Of a stretch of 64,000 nt of DNA, positions 1 through 38,128 are shown piece by piece; positions within the stretch are counted from its first letter, which is position 1, and each line of letters begins with the position of its first letter. Origin of the DNA: Escherichia coli (lineage in GTDB: Bacteria; Pseudomonadota; Gammaproteobacteria; Enterobacterales; Enterobacteriaceae); assembly GCF_044324785.1 (NCBI RefSeq), contig NZ_CP172127.1. One strand, 5' to 3'. The translations under genes were made by a program, and so were the position numbers. The notes under the pieces are model-generated. The model was not told the DNA's origin. It saw only the letters and a program-made list of their open reading frames with translations, and did no database searches.

Positions 1-1185
1 GGCACTGCGCTGGAACCCACACTGCAAAACGTCGCTATCGGCGTAACCGATATCCCGGCGCTGCTGGATTTCGCGCAAAACGAAAAGATCGATCTAACCA
101 TCGTCGGCCCGGAAGCGCCGCTGGTGAAAGGCGTAGTGGATACCTTCCGCGCCGCCGGGCTGAAAATCTTCGGCCCAACCGCAGGTGCCGCGCAGCTGGA
201 AGGCTCGAAAGCGTTTACCAAGGATTTCCTGGCCCGCCATCAGATCCCTACGGCGGAATACCAGAACTTCACCGAGGTAGAACCTGCGCTGGCGTATCTG
301 CGTGAGAAAGGCGCGCCAATCGTCATTAAAGCTGACGGTCTGGCTGCCGGGAAAGGCGTTATCGTGGCGATGACGCAGGAAGAAGCGGAAGCGGCTGTTC
401 ACGATATGCTGGCGGGCAACGCTTTTGGCGACGCGGGGCATCGCATCGTTATCGAAGAGTTCCTCGACGGCGAAGAAGCGAGCTTTATCGTGATGGTGGA
501 CGGTGAGCATGTGCTGCCGATGGCCACCAGCCAGGATCACAAACGCGTAGGCGATAAAGATACCGGGCCGAACACCGGCGGGATGGGCGCTTACTCCCCT
601 GCGCCAGTAGTGACCGATGAGGTTCATCAGCGCACGATGGAACGAATCATCTGGCCAACCGTGAAAGGCATGGCGGCAGAAGGCAACACCTACACCGGTT
701 TTCTCTACGCGGGCCTGATGATCGACAAACAGGGCAATCCGAAGGTTATCGAATTTAACTGCCGCTTTGGCGATCCGGAAACCCAGCCGATTATGCTGCG
801 CATGAAGTCCGATCTGGTTGAGCTCTGCCTGGCAGCCTGTGAAGGTACGCTTGACGAGAAAACGTCCGAGTGGGATGAACGCGCTTCTCTCGGCGTGGTG
901 ATGGCTGCGGGTGGATATCCGGGCGATTACCGCACCGGCGATGTGATCCACGGCCTGCCGCTGGAAGAAGTGTCTGACGGCAAAGTGTTCCACGCGGGCA
1001 CGAAACTGGCGGATGACGAGCAGGTAGTGACCAGCGGCGGGCGCGTACTGTGCGTCACCGCGCTGGGTCATACTGTGGCAGAAGCGCAGAAACGCGCTTA
1101 TGCCTTAATGACCGATATCCATTGGGACGACTGCTTCTGCCGGAAAGATATCGGCTGGCGCGCTATCGAACGCGAGCAGAACTAA
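1..1185 (+). CDS. purD: phosphoribosylamine--glycine ligase (GAR synthetase), 5' end outside window
   Basis: Frame 1 is open from base 1 (GTALEPTLQNVAIG...) into listed ORF 124..1185; ATP-grasp type sequence; conserved position next to zraR. Confidence 0.93.
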   Translation, partial: GTALEPTLQNVAIGVTDIPALLDFAQNEKIDLTIVGPEAPLVKGVVDTFRAAGLKIFGPTAGAAQLEGSKAFTKDFLARHQIPTAEYQNFTEVEPALAYLREKGAPIVIKADGLAAGKGVIVAMTQEEAEAAVHDMLAGNAFGDAGHRIVIEEFLDGEEASFIVMVDGEHVLPMATSQDHKRVGDKDTGPNTGGMGAYSPAPVVTDEVHQRTMERIIWPTVKGMAAEGNTYTGFLYAGLMIDKQGNPKVIEFNCRFGDPETQPIMLRMKSDLVELCLAACEGTLDEKTSEWDERASLGVVMAAGGYPGDYRTGDVIHGLPLEEVSDGKVFHAGTKLADDEQVVTSGGRVLCVTALGHTVAEAQKRAYALMTDIHWDDCFCRKDIGWRAIEREQN

Positions 1186-2507
1186 CGCGACAGTTTTGCC
1201 AAGAGCGTTTTGCGCGTGATCCCTAACTGACGGGCGGCTTCGGTTTTGTTGCCGCCCGTTTTCTCCAGTGCCGCAAGAATCACCTCTTTTTCGACTTCCA
1301 CCAGCGGCTGAATATCCTGACTTTGTACCAGCGGGATCGGCGTACTCGCAATCGCCAGCGGCAGCTCGCGTTCGGAAATATATTCCCCGGTCAGCAGCAC
1401 CACCGCCCGTTCCACCGCGTTTTCCAGTTCACGAATATTTCCCGGCCAGTCGTAGTGAATCAGCAGATCCATCGCCTGGGGCGTAAAACCTTTTACCGCC
1501 TTGCGATTACGCTCGGCAAAGCGCTGAAGAAAATGGTTTGCCAGCAGAGGAATATCTTCCCGCCGCTGACGCAGCGACGGAACTTCAATCGCCACCACGT
1601 TCAGGCGATAGTAGAGATCCTGGCGAAAACGCCCGGCATTCACCTCTGCGGCAAGATCGCGATGAGTCGCCGCAATCAGCCGGACATCAACCGAGATGGT
1701 CTGGTTGCTGCCGACACGCTGAACTTCGCGCTCCTGAATCGCACGCAGCAGACGAACCTGCATCATCGGCGAGATATCGCCAATTTCATCGAGAAACAGC
1801 GTGCCGCCGTCCGCCTCAACAAAGCGCCCTTCCCGGCGTTTGTCGGCTCCGGTAAACGCCCCTTTTTCGTGACCGAACAATTCAGATTCCAGCAAGGATT
1901 CGTTGAGTGCCGCACAGTTGAGCGTTACCAGTGGTTTTTCACTCCGTGCGCTACTGGCGTGAATCGCCCTGGCGACCAGCTCTTTACCGGTGCCGGAATC
2001 GCCGTGGATCAGCACTGTGGCTTCCGATGGCGCGACGAGGGCGATTTCACTGAGCAGGTGTTGCATCGCCGGGCTTTTACCGACCATACCGAACTGGCTG
2101 GCAGACACCGCAGGCGTTTCAGCGTCAATACTGTGCGTATGCGCGAGCACCTTTTCCAGCGTCGCCTGCAGGTTATCGAAATCCAGCGGCTTGATGAGAT
2201 AATCCAGCGCCCCGGTTTTCAGTGCCTCTACCGCCGTCTCGACGCTGGAGTATGCGGTCATAATCAGTACCGGAATCGCCGGATTTAACGCTTTGATCTC
2301 TTTTAGCGTGGCAATGCCGTCCATCTCCGCCATTCGCACATCGCAAAGCACAAGATCAAAAACTCGCTCCCGCACCTGTTCCAGCGCCTGTCGCCCGCTG
2401 TTCGCCAGCGCGACGTTATAGCCCCAGCCGCGCAGTAAAGCCTGCAAAATAGTGCAGTGGCTAATGTCATCATCCACCACCAGAATATCGATATTATCGT
2501 GCGTCAT
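1182..2507 (-). CDS. zraR: sigma-54 dependent two-component response regulator
   Basis: 441 aa; receiver domain N-terminus, AAA+ sigma54-activator motifs (GESGTGKE, GAFTGA), C-terminal HTH; overlaps zraS stop. Confidence 0.93.
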
Positions 2508-3880
2508 CCTTGTGGGTCCTTACGCGTAATATTGACCGGAAGCCAGAGGGTGAACGTTGCGCCTTTTCCCTCCTGGCTTGCGACCTGAATTGTACCACCG
2601 TGTTGTTCAACAATATTATGCACGACCGCCAGCCCCAGTCCGGTACCTTCGGCTTTGGTGGTGAAGTACGGGGTGAAGATGGCTTCAAGCTGATCTGCCG
2701 CAATTCCCTTACCGCTGTCGGTAACGCTGATTTTCACGCCCGCGCCGCTTTCGCTGGCCGTCACGCTAATCACGCCATGCTGACCAATCGCCTGAATAGC
2801 ATTGAGATAGAGATTCAACAGGACCTGAGTCAGCCTGTCCGGATCGGCCTGAATTTCCGGTAATGTGTCGTTGGCGGTAAAGCGTAACTGGATCTCCCGG
2901 CTGTTTGCATCCTGGCTTACCAGCTGTAATGAGTGGTTAATCAGCGTGTTGAGATCCACCGCCTGCAAAGCCAGATGCGTTGGCTTGACCAGTTCCAGCA
3001 ACTCGCTTACCACGCGGTTTAAACGGTCGGCTTCTTTCGCCATCACCTGCGCCAGTTGATGCGCTTCTCCCCCTGCTGGCGCACGTTCGGCAAAGTATTT
3101 CGCCAGCCCTTTAATCGAGGAAAGTGGGTTACGGATTTCGTGGGCGACGCCTGCCGCAAGATGCCCCAGTGCCACCAGCTTCTCTTTGCGCTTCATTTCA
3201 TCCTGCAATAGCTGCCGCGAGCGCAGATATCGGCGATACCAGAAGAATGACAACACGCTTGCCAGCAAGACCGTCGCCAGAGCGAAGAGGATAATCAGGG
3301 TATTTCTCTGCTCACGATCCTCAGCACTCACAATGTTACTGGCGTCGAAAGCGATAAAAATTGCTTGTGGTGTCGCGGCATACTGCTGCATATGGCGCAT
3401 CCGGTGCATTCCAGCAGCAAACATCGGTTGAAACTGGCGATAAATTTCCAGAACAGGCTCGCCGTCTGCGCTATCGATCCGCCGCCACGCTTCTTCATCT
3501 CCCGGATGTAACTGCTGCATTTTCTGCGGGGAATAAAGCTGTTTTCCCACCATGCCGGAGTTGCTATGCATCACGATTGTTCCTTGTTCATCCGTGACCG
3601 CAAACCAACGTACACCAGGCTGCCCGGCCATTTCTTCCAGTAATGCCTGCTGCTGCGCATGATGCATGCGCATCCCCATGCCGACGCGCGAGCCGGATTC
3701 GAGAGCACGGATAAGTACACTGCCTTTTTCCAGCTGCGTTTGTCTGGCGGCGGCAGTCTCGCGCCCATAATCGCGAATCACTGTCACCGCAAACAGCCCC
3801 ACCAGCCCAACAATGACCACGGGGAGGATCGCGCTTAACCATTTAGCTAAGGAATCTTTAGAACGTTGCATAAAACGCAT
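2504..3880 (-). CDS. zraS: sensor histidine kinase of ZraSR system
   Basis: 458 aa; two TM segments, H-box (HEIRNPL) and HATPase motifs; operon with zraR. Confidence 0.9.
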   Translation of the reverse strand: MRFMQRSKDSLAKWLSAILPVVIVGLVGLFAVTVIRDYGRETAAARQTQLEKGSVLIRALESGSRVGMGMRMHHAQQQALLEEMAGQPGVRWFAVTDEQGTIVMHSNSGMVGKQLYSPQKMQQLHPGDEEAWRRIDSADGEPVLEIYRQFQPMFAAGMHRMRHMQQYAATPQAIFIAFDASNIVSAEDREQRNTLIILFALATVLLASVLSFFWYRRYLRSRQLLQDEMKRKEKLVALGHLAAGVAHEIRNPLSSIKGLAKYFAERAPAGGEAHQLAQVMAKEADRLNRVVSELLELVKPTHLALQAVDLNTLINHSLQLVSQDANSREIQLRFTANDTLPEIQADPDRLTQVLLNLYLNAIQAIGQHGVISVTASESGAGVKISVTDSGKGIAADQLEAIFTPYFTTKAEGTGLGLAVVHNIVEQHGGTIQVASQEGKGATFTLWLPVNITRKDPQG

Positions 3881-23871: not shown

Positions 23872-23905
23872 GCAAAAAGGCTGGTGACTAAAAAGTCACC
23901 AGCCA
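23872..23905 (-). terminator. rplL-rpoB intergenic attenuator hairpin
   Basis: Minus-strand GGCTGGTGACT-ttt-AGTCACCAGCC followed by TTTTT between rplL stop and rpoB start. Confidence 0.7.
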
Positions 23906-23943
23906 TCAGCCTGATTTCTCAGGCTGCAACCGGAAGGTTTGGC

Positions 23944-29842: not shown

Positions 29843-30793
29843 ATGAGTATAAAAGAGCAAACGTTAATGACGCCTTACCTACAGTTTGACCGCAACCAGT
29901 GGGCAGCTCTGCGTGATTCCGTACCTATGACGTTATCGGAAGATGAGATCGCCCGTCTCAAAGGTATTAATGAAGATCTCTCGTTAGAAGAAGTTGCCGA
30001 GATCTATTTACCTCTGTCACGTTTGCTGAACTTCTATATAAGCTCGAATCTGCGCCGTCAGGCAGTTCTGGAACAGTTTCTTGGTACCAACGGGCAACGC
30101 ATTCCTTACATTATCAGTATTGCTGGTAGTGTCGCGGTGGGGAAAAGTACAACCGCCCGTGTATTGCAGGCGCTATTAAGCCGTTGGCCGGAACATCGTC
30201 GTGTTGAACTGATCACTACAGATGGCTTCCTTCACCCTAATCAGGTTCTGAAAGAACGAGGTCTGATGAAGAAGAAAGGCTTCCCGGAATCGTATGATAT
30301 GCATCGCCTGGTGAAGTTTGTTTCCGATCTCAAATCCGGCGTGCCAAACGTTACAGCCCCTGTTTACTCGCATCTTATTTATGATGTGATCCCGGATGGA
30401 GATAAAACGGTTGTTCAGCCTGATATTTTAATTCTTGAAGGGTTAAATGTCTTACAGAGCGGGATGGATTATCCACACGATCCACATCATGTATTTGTTT
30501 CTGATTTTGTAGATTTTTCGATATATGTTGATGCACCGGAAGACTTACTTCAGACGTGGTATATCAACCGTTTCCTGAAATTCCGCGAAGGGGCTTTTAC
30601 AGACCCGGATTCCTATTTTCATAACTACGCGAAATTAACTAAAGAAGAAGCGATTAATACAGCCATGACGTTGTGGAAAGAGATCAACTGGCTGAACTTA
30701 AAGCAAAATATTCTACCTACTCGCGAGCGCGCCAGTTTAATCCTGACGAAAAGTGCTAATCATGCGGTAGAAGAGGTCAGACTACGCAAATAA
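29843..30793 (+). CDS. coaA: pantothenate kinase (type I)
   Basis: 316 aa from [20 protein letters not shown] (internal Met of ORF 29687..30793); P-loop GSVAVGKST. Confidence 0.95.
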
Positions 30794-30821
30794 TTTTCAG
30801 GGGAGCTAATGCTCCCCTATC

Positions 30822-31787
30822 TTATTTTTCCGCACTACGCAGGGATATTTCACCGCCCATCCAGGGTTTTATTATTCCATCCTGCTCAAGCAATAAAGCG
30901 CCCTGTTTGTCTATTCCGCGCGAAATGCCAAATATTTCTTTATCACCAATGATAAGTTTCACTGGGCGATTAATAAAATTATCCAGCTTTTCCCAGCGCG
31001 AAAGATAAGGTGCCAATCCTTCTTGCTCGAAGAGTTCCAGCGCCGCGCGTAATTCACGTATGAGCATGGCCGCCAACGTATTACGATCGAGATTGATTCC
31101 CGCTTCCTGCAGCGTGATCCACCCTTGATTAACGACACTCTCTTCAACACGACGCATTGCCATGTTGATCCCGGCACCAATGACTATTTGCGCCGCATCG
31201 CCGGTTTTGCCAGTTAGCTCCACAAGAATGCCTGCCAGCTTGCGATCCTGCAGATAGAGGTCATTAGGCCATTTAACACGAACTTTATCAGCACCCAGCT
31301 TGCGTAATACTTCCGCCATCACGATACCGATAACCAGACTTAAACCAATCGCCGCCGCCGGGCCTTGTTCCAGACGCCAGAACATCGACAAATATAAGTT
31401 TGCGCCAAAAGGCGAAAACCATTTCCGCCCCCGGCGACCACGGCCAGCCTGCTGGTATTCTGCAATGCAAGCATCGCCCGATTTAAGCTCTCCGATACGA
31501 TCAAGAAGGTACTGATTCGTGGAGTCAATCACTGGCAGCACGGCTACACTACCGCCATCCAGCTGACTCAATATCTGTTCTGCATTAAGTAACTGAATGG
31601 GCTCAGGCAGGCTGTATCCTTTACCCGGAACGGTAAAGACATCAACGCCCCAGTCACGCAGTGTCTGAATGTGTTTATTAATGGCCGCCCGGCTCATTCC
31701 TAACGTTTCACCCAACTGCTCACCAGAGTGAAATTCGCCATTCGCTAACAGCGCGATTAATTTCAGCGGAACGGTATTATCCTTCAT
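30822..31787 (-). CDS. birA: bifunctional biotin-[acetyl-CoA-carboxylase] ligase / bio operon repressor
   Basis: 321 aa [60 protein letters not shown]... Confidence 0.97.
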
Positions 31788-32812
31788 GAAATCGTCTCCA
31801 CTGCGCTAACTTCACCTGATGCACCAATAAAGCGAACTTCAGGCTCAAGCCAGACATTAAATTTTTCACCCACTTTTTGTCTTACATGGTGTGCCAGTTG
31901 CACCACATCTTCGCTTTTTGCATTGTCTTCATTAATGAGAACTAACGCCTGTTGACGGTGCACCGCTGCGCCCCCCATTTGCCCCCCTTTTAGCTGGCAC
32001 TGATCGATAAGCCAACCTGCTGCCAGTTTTACTGAACCATCCACCTGGGGGTAATTTGGTGCTGTTGGAAATTGAGCCAGTAATGCTTTAGCCGTTTCGG
32101 CAGATACAACAGGGTTTTTGAAGAAACTACCGGCATTGCCATTCACTTTTGGATCAGGGAGTTTGGTGGTACGCATATGACACACCGCATTAAATACTTG
32201 CTGTGGCGTTACTGTTGTAGGATCCAGTCGAGTTAAGTCACCATACGTTAGTACAGGTTGCCACTCTTTTGGCAGACGCAGACCTACGGCTACAATGGCG
32301 AAGCGGTCCTGGTATTCATGTTTAAAAATACTGTCGCGATAGCCAAAACGGCACTCTTTGGCAGTTAAGCGCACCTGCTTGCCTGTCGCCAGTTCAACAC
32401 AGTCAACATAAGCGCAAACTCGCTGTAATTCTACGCCATAAGCACCAATATTCTGGATAGGTGATGAGCCGACACAACCAGGAATTAATGCCAGATTTTC
32501 CAGACCAGGCATACCTTCCTGCAAAGTGTATTTTACCAGGCGATGCCAGTTTTCTCCGGCTCCTACATGTAAATACCACGCATCAGGTTCATCATGAATT
32601 TCGATACCTTTGATCCGGTTGATGATCACCGTGCCGCGATAGTCTTCCAGAAAAAGTACATTACTTCCTTCACCCAGAATAAGAACGGGTTGCCCTTCTG
32701 CGGTTGCATGCTGCCAGGCATTGAGTAATTGTTGTTCGTCTTCGGCACATACAATGTGCTGAGCATTATGATCAATGCCAAATGTGTTCCAGGGTTTTAA
32801 GGAGTGGTTCAT
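31784..32812 (-). CDS. murB: UDP-N-acetylenolpyruvoylglucosamine reductase
   Basis: 342 aa; FAD-binding MurB sequence; overlaps birA start. Confidence 0.96.
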
Positions 32813-32890
32813 AGCTGCTTTCCTGATGCAAAAACGAGGCTAGTTTACCGTATCTGTGGGGGGATGGCTTGTAGTTATGACGACAGGGAA

Positions 32891-33112
32891 AGTTTGTAGA
32901 AACGCAAAAAGGCCCAGTCTTCCGACCGGGCCTTCTGCTTAATTTGATGCCTGGCAGTTTATGGCGGGCGTCCTGCCCGCCACCCTCCGGGCCGTTGCTT
33001 CGCAACGTTCAAATCCGCTCCCGGCGGATTTGTCCTGGTTGGGAGAGCGTTCACCGACAAACAACAGATAAAACGAAAGGCCCAGTCTTTCGACTGAGCC
33101 TTTCGTTTTATT
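32891..33112 (-). terminator. rRNA operon terminator region (T1 and T2 hairpins)
   Basis: Two GC hairpins with T-runs on minus strand downstream of 5S (T1 about 33070..33110; T2 about 32900..32945). Confidence 0.8.
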
Positions 33113-33114
33113 TG

Positions 33115-33234
33115 ATGCCTGGCAGTTCCCTACTCTCGCATGGGGAGACCCCACACTACCATCGGCGCTACGGCGTTTCACTTCTGAGTTCGGCATGGGG
33201 TCAGGTGGGACCACCGCGCTACGGCCGCCAGGCA
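33115..33234 (-). rRNA. rrfB: 5S ribosomal RNA
   Basis: 120 nt; minus strand begins TGCCTGGCGGCCGTAGCGCGGTGGTCCCACCTGACCCCATGCCGAACTCAG. Confidence 0.97.
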
Positions 33235-33327
33235 AATTCTGTTTCATCAGACCGCTTCTGCGTTCTGATTTAATCTGTATCAGGCTGAAAATCTTCTCTC
33301 AATCCGCCAAAACAGCTTCGGCGTTGT

Positions 33328-36232
<2,905 letters not shown>

Positions 36233-36425
36233 TCACAACCCGAAGATGTTTCTTTCGATTCATCATCGTGTTGCAAAAATTTGAGAGACTCACGAACAAC
36301 TTTCGTTGTTCAGTGTTTCAATTTTCAGCTTGATCCAGATTTTTAAAGAGCAAATATCTCAAACATCACCCGAAGATGAGTTTTGAGATATCAAGGCAGG
36401 TGACTTTCACTCACAAACCAGCAAG

Positions 36426-36501
36426 TGGCGTCCCCTAGGGGATTCGAACCCCTGTTACCGCCGTGAAAGGGCGGTGTCCTGGGCCTCTAGACGAAGGGGA
36501 C
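36426..36501 (-). tRNA. gltT: tRNA-Glu (UUC) in 16S-23S spacer
   Basis: Minus strand reads GTCCCCTTCGTCTAGAGGCCCAGGACACCGCCCTTTCACGGCGGTAACAGGGGTTCGAATCCCCTAGGGGACGCCA. Confidence 0.96.

Positions 36502-36586: not shown

Positions 36587-38128
<1,542 letters not shown>

What the first reader, a model, noticed from the sequence alone, without database searches (positions are those of the whole stretch)
32891..32945. Second rRNA-operon terminator hairpin resembles T1 rather than the canonical rrnB T2
The distal terminator reads (minus strand) AGAAGGCCCGGTCGGAAGACTGGGCCTTTTTGCGTTTCTAC. From memory, rrnB T2 in K-12 and cloning vectors is AGAAGGCCATCCTGACGGATGGCCTTTTTGCG. The hairpin body here is nearly identical to the T1 hairpin in the same window (AAGGCTCAGTCGAAAGACTGGGCCTTT), suggesting gene conversion between terminators or between rrn operons, or ordinary strain polymorphism.
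Basis: partly seen in the sequence, partly recalled or inferred. Interest (0 to 1): 0.2.

Follow-up and report, generated by a model that had tools for sequence, protein, structure and literature searches.

The report
Common non-K-12 rrnB terminator allele
The second terminator after this E. coli ribosomal RNA operon does differ from the lab-strain K-12 version, but the same sequence is the normal terminator at this site in about a quarter of E. coli genomes (including O157:H7), so it is ordinary strain variation.

Summary
On the minus strand, the distal terminator between rrfB and murB reads AGAAGGCCCGGTC-GGAA-GACTGGGCCTTTTTGCG. K-12 MG1655 has AGAAGGCCATCC-TGAC-GGATGGCCTTTTTGCG. The flanks are identical; 12 nt of hairpin interior are replaced by 14 nt.

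The new hairpin belongs to the T1 family. Its 3' arm is identical to T1, its 5' arm matches at 7 of 9 positions, and its GGAA loop is that of rrnA/rrnD T1.

It is not rare. The exact 51-mer occurs in 393 of 5,426 complete E. coli genomes and close variants in 1,481, including O157:H7 Sakai and EDL933, O55:H7, O145 and APEC O1. In every sampled case with murB downstream, it sits directly after 5S as the only terminator before murB.

What is uncommon (about 16 genomes) is the window's arrangement: K-12-like T1 plus spacer in front of this allele. In the nearest genome, strain N3, rrnE carries an identical T1-spacer-T2 module and rrnA shares the same spacer variant. That points to exchange between rrn operon ends.

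Outgroups do not settle which hairpin is ancestral. E. albertii has a T1-like hairpin, while a cryptic Escherichia and Enterobacter have the K-12 type.

Function: an intrinsic terminator, predicted slightly more stable than K-12 T2. Known kind, low interest.

The parts
33117..33232 (-). rrfB 5S rRNA gene, last gene of the rrnB operon
   Evidence: Rfam 5S_rRNA, 92.8 bits. Aligns to MG1655 rrfB with one A-to-C difference at window 33223.
33068..33111 (-). T1 terminator: 20-bp near-perfect palindrome with core GGCTCAGTC-GAAA-GACTGGGCC, identical to K-12 rrnB T1
   Evidence: Terminator scan hit. RNA fold -32.1 kcal/mol, z = -9.05. Identical to MG1655.
32960..33067 (-). T1-T2 spacer. Differs from K-12 by a cluster of four substitutions (CCAACCAGG versus CTGAGTAGG; window 33041, 33040, 33038, 33037).
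   Evidence: Alignment to MG1655. The same cluster occurs in strain N3 rrnA, rrnB and rrnE but not rrnD.
32942..32959 (-). Second copy of the 5S 3'-tail repeat AACTGCCAGGCATCAAAT, which precedes the distal hairpin as the real 5S tail precedes T1
   Evidence: Direct repeat D1, 52 nt at 87% identity, spacing 168.
32906..32938 (-). Distal (T2-position) intrinsic terminator. Extended stem GCAGAAGGCCCGGTC / GACTGGGCCTT(T)TTGC, loop GGAA, with the U-run 32906-32910 partly inside the outer stem. The core is 32911-32932.
   Evidence: Sequence. RNA fold -26.1 kcal/mol, z = -5.41, 0 of 200 shuffles as good. Core hairpin -18.1 kcal/mol against -14.7 for K-12 T2. The identical 51-mer lies directly after rrfB in O157:H7 Sakai.
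32812..32905 (-). rrnB-specific tail (GCGTTTCTACAAAC...) and murB leader up to the murB ATG at 32812-32810. The haplotype is Sakai-like (CCCTGTCGTCATAAC), not K-12-like.
   Evidence: Alignments. blastn gives window versus Sakai 99.57% over 464 nt downstream of the 5S-tail repeat.

Best explanation
The feature is the distal Rho-independent terminator of the rrnB operon, lying between rrfB and murB. It is a natural allele whose hairpin belongs to the T1 family (GGCYCRGTC-GRAA-GACTGGGCC) rather than the K-12 T2 family (GGCCATCC-NNNN-GGATGGCC).

Shown: this allele, with the same rrnB-specific 3' tail, is the terminator at this site in roughly 27% of complete E. coli genomes. It is usually the only terminator after 5S. 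The window's lineage has it behind a K-12-like T1 plus spacer, which is a rare mosaic.

Inferred: the mosaic arose by homologous exchange (gene conversion) between the distal ends of rrn operons. That exchange would use the long identical 23S/5S sequence upstream and a short repeat downstream. The downstream repeat would be either AACTGCCAGGCATCAAATTAAGCAGAAGGCC or GGCCTTTTTGCG.

Inferred mechanism of action: the nascent RNA folds a 9-bp G+C-rich stem with a GGAA tetraloop. Weaker A-U and G.U pairs extend the stem, and UUUUUGCGUUU follows it. This releases RNA polymerase that has read through T1 and insulates murB-birA from the very strong rrnB promoters.

The polymorphic stem positions change only between Watson-Crick and G.U pairs, so the hairpin is conserved as a structure.
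For: Identity and context:
- Rfam finds 16S, 23S and 5S on the minus strand.
- murB starts 94 nt downstream of the U-run.

The allele is real and common:
- The exact 51-mer is in 393 genomes and close variants in 1,481 of 5,426, all chromosomal and none on plasmids.
- The K-12-type T2 with the rrnB tail is in about 3,524 genomes.
- Seven sampled carriers with murB downstream all have 5S, then this hairpin, then murB, with murB starting about 137 nt after the annotated 5S end (300 nt in K-12). They are Sakai, 14EC020, WCHEC000837, O145 RM9872, UPEC 26-1, APEC O1 and SC418.
- An eighth sampled carrier, strain 90-3040, has the same hairpin as the single terminator of rrnA, next to mobB.

The double arrangement is rare:
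- Only about 16 genomes give a full-length match of at least 95% to spacer plus variant T2.
- I confirmed it in N3, A35, AR_0061 and ws5-3.

Exchange between operons:
- In N3, rrnB and rrnE are identical from 5S through ...CCTTTTTGCG and then diverge into locus-specific flanks.
- N3 rrnA shares the CCAACCAGG spacer variant but has a GGCCATCC-type T2.
- N3 rrnD and rrnG are K-12-like.
- The window's murB-side flank is Sakai-like.

Structure:
- The 55-nt context folds at -26.1 kcal/mol, z = -5.41.
- All four 5'-arm haplotypes (CG, CA, TG, TA) keep the 9-bp stem.

Background: a review of bacterial rrn concerted evolution attributes it to short-tract gene conversion (PMC6002687).
Against: - No termination assay or 3'-end mapping is available here, so function is inferred from sequence and position.
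- The simple terminator scan did not call this hairpin. Its maximal-stem rule lets the A-U and G.U outer pairs consume four of the five T's. By the same rule K-12 T2 should fail too, though I did not run that.
- The direction of events is not resolved. The module may have been added in front of a native single terminator, or single terminators may derive from a double by deletion.
- Outgroups disagree on the ancestral hairpin.
- The 'single terminator' status of the 1,481 carriers rests on eight sampled genomes plus the count, not on all of them.
Confidence: 0.85

Rival explanations
1. Recent local conversion: within this strain's rrnB, the T1 hairpin was copied onto a K-12-type T2, replacing only the hairpin interior.
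For: T1 and the distal unit form a 52-nt direct repeat at 87% identity, 168 nt apart. The 3' arm GACTGGGCC is identical and the flanks remain T2-type.
Against: The loop is GGAA, not the GAAA of the window's T1, and the 5' arm differs at two positions. The identical allele, including the 3' tail, is found in hundreds of genomes that have no T1 at rrnB, for example Sakai, so no local donor is needed. The murB-side flank is of the Sakai haplotype. No genome was found whose T1 carries exactly GGCCCGGTCGGAAGACTGGGCC: among full-length matches the best was 98.1%.
Confidence: 0.07
2. Reverse direction: the double arrangement with a T1-like distal hairpin (as in the window) is the older state. The common single-terminator alleles arose from it by deletion between the 18-nt 5S-tail repeats or by unequal crossing-over within the T1 and T2 units.
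For: Single-terminator alleles form a series of apparent T1-unit/T2-unit hybrids with different junctions. SC418 has the T1 5' flank and hairpin with the T2 tail. O145, WCHEC000837 and APEC O1 have mixed 5' flanks. Deletion between the 18-nt repeats in the window would give exactly the Sakai sequence. E. albertii has a T1-like hairpin next to murB.
Against: The double form with a T1-like distal hairpin is very rare, about 16 of 5,426 genomes. Those copies differ from each other in 5' flank and stem haplotype, which fits repeated independent exchanges better than a relic. Escherichia sp. E1V33 and Enterobacter genomosp. O have a single GGCCATCC-type terminator at 5S-murB. The E. albertii contig starts inside the terminator, so its architecture is unknown.
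Confidence: 0.25
3. Assembly or sequencing artefact: repeated rrn ends were collapsed or mis-joined, creating a chimeric T1-spacer-T2.
For: rrn operons are classic assembly breakpoints. Draft contigs end inside the terminator. The nearest genome, N3, carries many frameshifted pseudogenes in its annotation.
Against: The same arrangement, with murB downstream, appears in several independent complete genomes from different sources: N3, 06-00048 (120 of 120 identical), A35, AR_0061 and ws5-3. The hairpin itself is in 1,481 genomes including the finished Sakai and EDL933 references.
Confidence: 0.02

Closest known systems
E. coli K-12 rrnB T2 terminator (the T2 of the rrnB T1T2 cassette used in cloning vectors)
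   Same: Same position, between the T1-T2 spacer and murB. The 5' flank (...CAAATTAAGCAGAAGGCC) and the 3' flank (GGCCTTTTTGCGTTTCTAC) are identical. It has the same stem-plus-U-run architecture.
   Different: The hairpin interior is replaced: ATCCTGACGGAT becomes CGGTCGGAAGACTG. That gives a 9-bp rather than 8-bp core stem and a GGAA rather than UGAC loop. The predicted core is more stable, -18.1 against -14.7 kcal/mol. No plasmid in the E. coli collection carries the variant.
rrfB-murB terminator of E. coli O157:H7 Sakai/EDL933 and many other non-K-12 lineages
   Same: The 51-mer, including the hairpin and the rrnB-specific tail, is identical. The murB-side haplotype is near-identical: 99.57% over 464 nt.
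   Different: In those genomes it directly follows 5S and is the only terminator. In the window a K-12-like T1 and 108-nt spacer precede it.
rrn T1 terminators (K-12 rrnB, rrnA, rrnD)
   Same: The 3' arm GACTGGGCC is identical and 7 of 9 positions match in the 5' arm. The loop GGAA is identical to rrnA and rrnD T1. The unit is preceded by the same AACTGCCAGGCATCAAAT.
   Different: T1 is a long perfect palindrome (AAAACGAAAGG...CCTTTCGTTTT) ending in TTTTAT. The window's distal hairpin has T2-type flanks (GCAGAAGG...CCTTTTTGCG).
Concerted evolution of bacterial rrn operons by gene conversion
   Same: In the nearest genome, rrnB and rrnE distal modules are identical and stop being identical exactly where locus-specific flanks begin. 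rrnA shares part of the module. This is the pattern described for rrn genes in the review PMC6002687.
   Different: Here the exchanged segment is the non-coding terminator region rather than the rRNA genes. The conversion events themselves are inferred, not observed.

Membership tests
Intrinsic (Rho-independent) terminator | Stable G+C-rich stem-loop in the transcript | tested here: met
   A 9-bp core stem with seven G-C, one A-U and one G.U pair plus a tetraloop. Core -18.1 kcal/mol. The 55-nt context folds at -26.1 kcal/mol, z = -5.41, with 0 of 200 shuffles as stable.
Intrinsic (Rho-independent) terminator | Run of U immediately 3' of the stem | tested here: met
   UUUUU GCG UUU directly follows the core stem. 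The generic scan did not call it because its maximal stem absorbs four of the U's.
Intrinsic (Rho-independent) terminator | Transcripts actually end there | not testable with these tools
   No 3'-end or read-through data are available. Position at the end of rrnB, and use as the sole 5S-murB terminator in sampled genomes, is indirect support only.
rrnB T2 (positional orthologue of the K-12 element) | Lies between the T1-T2 spacer and murB with the same flanking sequence | tested here: met
   Flanks are identical to MG1655 on both sides of the hairpin interior.
rrnB T2 (positional orthologue of the K-12 element) | Hairpin GGCCATCC-UGAC-GGAUGGCC | tested here: not met
   The interior is replaced by a T1-family hairpin. 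It is a different allele at the same site.
T1-family rrn hairpin (GGCYCRGTC-GRAA-GACTGGGCC) | Arms and loop match the consensus seen at T1 of rrnA, rrnB and rrnD | tested here: met
   19 of 22 positions match the window's T1 and 20 of 22 match K-12 rrnA/rrnD T1. Both stem differences are transitions that keep pairing.
Product of gene conversion between rrn operon ends | Identical tract shared by paralogous loci in one genome, bounded by locus-specific sequence | tested here: met
   In strain N3 (99.5-99.7% identical to the window around rrnB), rrnB and rrnE are identical from 5S to ...TTTTTGCG and then diverge. This was not tested in the window's own genome, because its rrnE lies outside the window.
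Product of gene conversion between rrn operon ends | Donor, recipient and direction identified on a phylogeny | not tested
   This needs all rrn ends from many genomes mapped on a core-genome tree. Only single rows per genome can be retrieved with the tools used here.

The most novel reading that the evidence does not exclude
Two hairpin families, T1-like and GGCCATCC-type, are kept as interchangeable cassettes at rrn operon ends across Escherichia and Enterobacter. They are swapped precisely between constant flanks. The choice of hairpin, and of one versus two terminators, would measurably tune read-through from rrnB into the essential murB-birA genes in different E. coli lineages. Under this reading the polymorphism is functional and possibly under balancing or lineage-specific selection rather than neutral.
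Probability: 0.07. Interest if true: 0.35.

Novelty: already known. Interest (0 to 1): 0.08.

Why it matters
It matters little for biology. It is a natural allele of a textbook terminator, and concerted evolution of rrn operons is well established.

Two practical points follow:
- 'rrnB T1T2' as known from K-12 and cloning vectors does not represent E. coli as a whole. About a quarter of complete genomes, including O157:H7 and APEC O1, have a single T1-like terminator at this site.
- rrn-distal regions are mosaic. Automated comparison against K-12 will flag such differences without any functional novelty behind them.

Tried and rejected
- **Generic terminator scan.** It found T1 but not the distal hairpin. 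I traced this to the tool's maximal-stem and T-count rule, not to absence of a terminator.
- **Local T1-to-T2 conversion.** Judged unlikely because loop and stem differ and the allele exists without T1.
- **Search for a T1 copy carrying exactly the variant hairpin, as a possible donor.** No full-length match was exact; the best was 98.1%.
- **Second copy in strain N3.** rrnA, rrnD and rrnG do not carry the variant hairpin. rrnE does.
- **Outgroup scan with the rrnB-specific tail.** It gave only four relevant loci among 25, the rest being chance matches in unrelated phyla. They disagree on the ancestral hairpin.
- **Identifying the source strain.** The nearest complete genome, N3, is 99.5-99.7% identical around rrnB but 97.9% at window 1-1984, and all other complete genomes are at most 98.7%. 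The exact MurB protein is on only two short public contigs. The source was not identified.
- **Literature searches.** They returned vector papers and general reviews. I found nothing on natural T2 polymorphism in the held library.
- **Rfam E-value search of the spacer.** It gave only sub-threshold hits.

Full report
**Context.** The window is the rrnB neighbourhood of an Escherichia coli-type chromosome, read on the minus strand. Rfam finds 16S (36587-38128), tRNA (36429-36501), 23S (33328-36232) and 5S (33117-32232 region, 33117-33232). It also finds the btuB cobalamin riboswitch, OxyS, the thi TPP riboswitch and the thrU-tyrU-glyT-thrT tRNA cluster. Downstream of 5S the sequence runs T1, spacer, a second hairpin, then the murB start codon at 32812.

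**Checking the observation.** The quoted sequence is there. I fetched MG1655 rrnB and aligned it.
- From 5S to murB the two are identical except for a few sites. One is a 5S site, and four clustered substitutions lie in the spacer.
- There are also three single-base differences in the murB leader.
- The interior of the distal hairpin also differs. K-12 has GGCC-ATCCTGACGGAT-GGCC; the window has GGCC-CGGTCGGAAGACTG-GGCC.
- The resemblance to T1 is also real. A 52-nt direct repeat at 87% identity, 168 nt apart, covers the 5S tail plus T1 and a second copy of the 5S tail plus the distal hairpin. Gap-free, 49 of 62 positions match in the window against 38 of 62 in K-12.
- The core hairpin differs from the window's T1 at three positions: two 5'-arm transitions and the loop, GGAA versus GAAA. 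GGAA is the loop of T1 in K-12 rrnA and rrnD.

**What the other K-12 operons carry.**

| Operon | Distal end |
|---|---|
| rrnA, rrnB, rrnD | T1, spacer, T2 of the GGCCATCC type |
| rrnG | single GGCCATCC-type terminator directly after 5S |
| rrnC, rrnH | tRNAs, then unrelated terminators |
| rrnE | unrelated terminator |

No K-12 operon has the window's distal hairpin.

**How common the allele is.**
- A 51-nt query made of T2-type flanks plus the variant hairpin can only seed on variant carriers. It hit 1,481 of 5,426 complete E. coli genomes, 393 of them at 99% or more, all chromosomal.
- The carriers include O157:H7 Sakai, EDL933, EC4115 and TW14359, O55:H7, O145 and APEC O1.
- The K-12-type T2 with the rrnB tail is in about 3,524 genomes.
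- I fetched eight carriers across the identity range and read them. In the seven with murB downstream, the hairpin directly follows 5S and murB starts about 137 nt after the annotated 5S end, against 300 nt in K-12. It is their only terminator at this site.
- In strain 90-3040 the same hairpin is the single terminator of rrnA.
- The alleles form a series. The 5' arm is GGCCCGGTC, GGCCCAGTC, GGCTCGGTC or GGCTCAGTC (one sampled allele, UPEC 26-1, has AGCCCAGTC), always with the 3' arm GACTGGGCC. The 5' flanks range from T2-like (TTAAGCAGAAGG) to T1-like (AAAACGAAAGG).
- Both polymorphic stem sites alternate between a Watson-Crick and a G.U pair, and all four combinations fold the same way. This is what one expects of a hairpin maintained for its structure.

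**What is unusual about the window.**
- A 120-nt query spanning spacer plus variant hairpin gave full-length matches of at least 95% in only about 16 genomes. K-12-like genomes score 92.5%.
- I confirmed the double arrangement with murB downstream in N3, A35, AR_0061 and ws5-3. Their distal units differ in flank and stem haplotype.
- So the T1-like hairpin is common. Having it as the second of two terminators is rare.
- The window's murB-side flank carries the Sakai haplotype, not the K-12 one.

**Evidence for exchange between operons.** Strain N3 is the closest complete genome: 100% over the 271-nt terminator region, 99.5% over 6.3 kb and 99.7% over murB-birA-coaA. I located its other rrn ends by synteny and aligned them.
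- rrnE carries a module identical to rrnB from 5S through ...GGGCCTTTTTGCG. After that each locus has its own flank.
- rrnA has the same rare CCAACCAGG spacer variant but a GGCCATCC-GTCA-GGATGGCC T2.
- rrnD is K-12-like.
- rrnG has a single GGCCATCC-TGAC terminator.
- In Sakai, rrnE has a single GGCCATCC-type terminator.

Identical tracts that end where locus-specific sequence begins are the signature of gene conversion between paralogous rrn ends. This process is well documented for the rRNA genes themselves (review PMC6002687). The window's own rrnE lies just outside the window, so this is shown in the nearest relative, not in the source genome.

**Direction and ancestry.** One scan of species-representative genomes with the rrnB-specific tail gave four relevant loci.
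- E. albertii has GGCCCGGTC-GAAA-GACCGGGCC next to murB. This is a T1-like hairpin with a perfect stem whose 5' arm equals the window's.
- Escherichia sp. E1V33 and Enterobacter genomosp. O have a single GGCCATCC-type terminator between 5S and murB.
- Enterobacter mori has the same type at an rrnD-like end.

Both hairpin families are therefore old, and the ancestral state at this site cannot be called from these data. Two histories remain.
- (a) A native single T1-like terminator gained T1 plus spacer from another operon. The distal junction would lie in the shared 31 nt AACTGCCAGGCATCAAATTAAGCAGAAGGCC.
- (b) A double arrangement is older, and single terminators arose by deletion between the 18-nt 5S-tail repeats.

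I favour (a). The double T1-like form is rare and heterogeneous, and the flank is Sakai-like. History (b) keeps appreciable weight.

**Mechanism.**
- The element has the anatomy of an intrinsic terminator.
- The 55-nt context folds at -26.1 kcal/mol (z = -5.41). The K-12 T2 context gives -22.7 and T1 gives -32.1.
- Core hairpins are -18.1 (window), -14.7 (K-12 T2) and -15.8 (T1) kcal/mol.
- The stem is followed by UUUUUGCGUUU.
- That it serves alone between rrfB and murB in the sampled genomes argues it is sufficient. This is indirect evidence, and no transcript data were available.
- The simple terminator scan missed it for a rule-based reason.

**Comparison with what is known, and verdict.** This is the positional orthologue of K-12 rrnB T2 carrying a T1-family hairpin. 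It is identical to the rrfB-murB terminator of O157:H7 reference genomes. It is an already-known kind of element, in a sequence present in hundreds of public genomes. Interest 0.08.

Noticed in passing
window 33037-33041 (minus strand, T1-T2 spacer): Four substitutions are clustered within five bases relative to K-12 (CTCTCC-CAACCA-GG versus CTCTCC-TGAGTA-GG). In strain N3 the same cluster is in rrnA, rrnB and rrnE but not rrnD. The next-best full-length matches to the 271-nt T1-to-T2 region in other genomes are at most 98.2% identical, so it looks rare. It appears to be a multi-nucleotide change spread between operons.
   Followed up: partly
window 32952-33074 (minus strand): The T1-T2 spacer gives a weak, sub-threshold full-length match to Rfam RtT RNA (RF00391): 21.1 bits against a gathering score of 45, E = 0.044. 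It may be chance or a distant relationship to the tyrT-operon repeat.
   Followed up: no
L049 (E. coli AR_0061, rrnB end), about 30 nt after the 5S 3' end: This strain's T1 reads GGCCCAGTC-TTTC-GACTGGGCC. The stem is perfect and the loop is the reverse complement of the usual GAAA, as if the palindrome had been flipped or templated from the opposite strand.
   Followed up: no
L017 39897-41245 (E. coli N3, downstream of rrnA T2): An IS3-family IS1397 element is inserted in the REP-like sequence immediately after the rrnA distal terminator, between rrfA and mobB.
   Followed up: no
window 1-1984 versus window 29850-36121: Identity to the nearest complete genome (N3) is uneven: 97.9% at the start of the window (purD/zraR) but 99.5-99.7% around rrnB-murB-coaA. 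All other complete E. coli are at most 98.7% in the latter region. The source strain is not in the collection and its chromosome looks mosaic relative to N3. The exact MurB protein is found on only two short public contigs.
   Followed up: partly
window 33223 (minus strand, 5S rRNA): This 5S copy has C where MG1655 rrfB has A (GGCGGC-C-GTAGC versus GGCGGC-A-GTAGC). It is probably ordinary 5S micro-heterogeneity.
   Followed up: no
L021 11947-12800 (E. coli N3, rrnE end): yjaA, which lies between rrfE and yjaB in K-12, is absent in N3 and in Sakai. In N3 the rrnE end is followed by a REP-like sequence and then yjaB.
   Followed up: no
window 23878-23939 (minus strand) and 36240-36348 (minus strand): There are above-threshold Rfam matches to 'Pseudomonas sRNA P26' (75.4 bits) and to 'StyR-44' (122 bits, just upstream of 23S in the rrnB spacer). 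Neither bears on the terminator and neither was examined.
   Followed up: no
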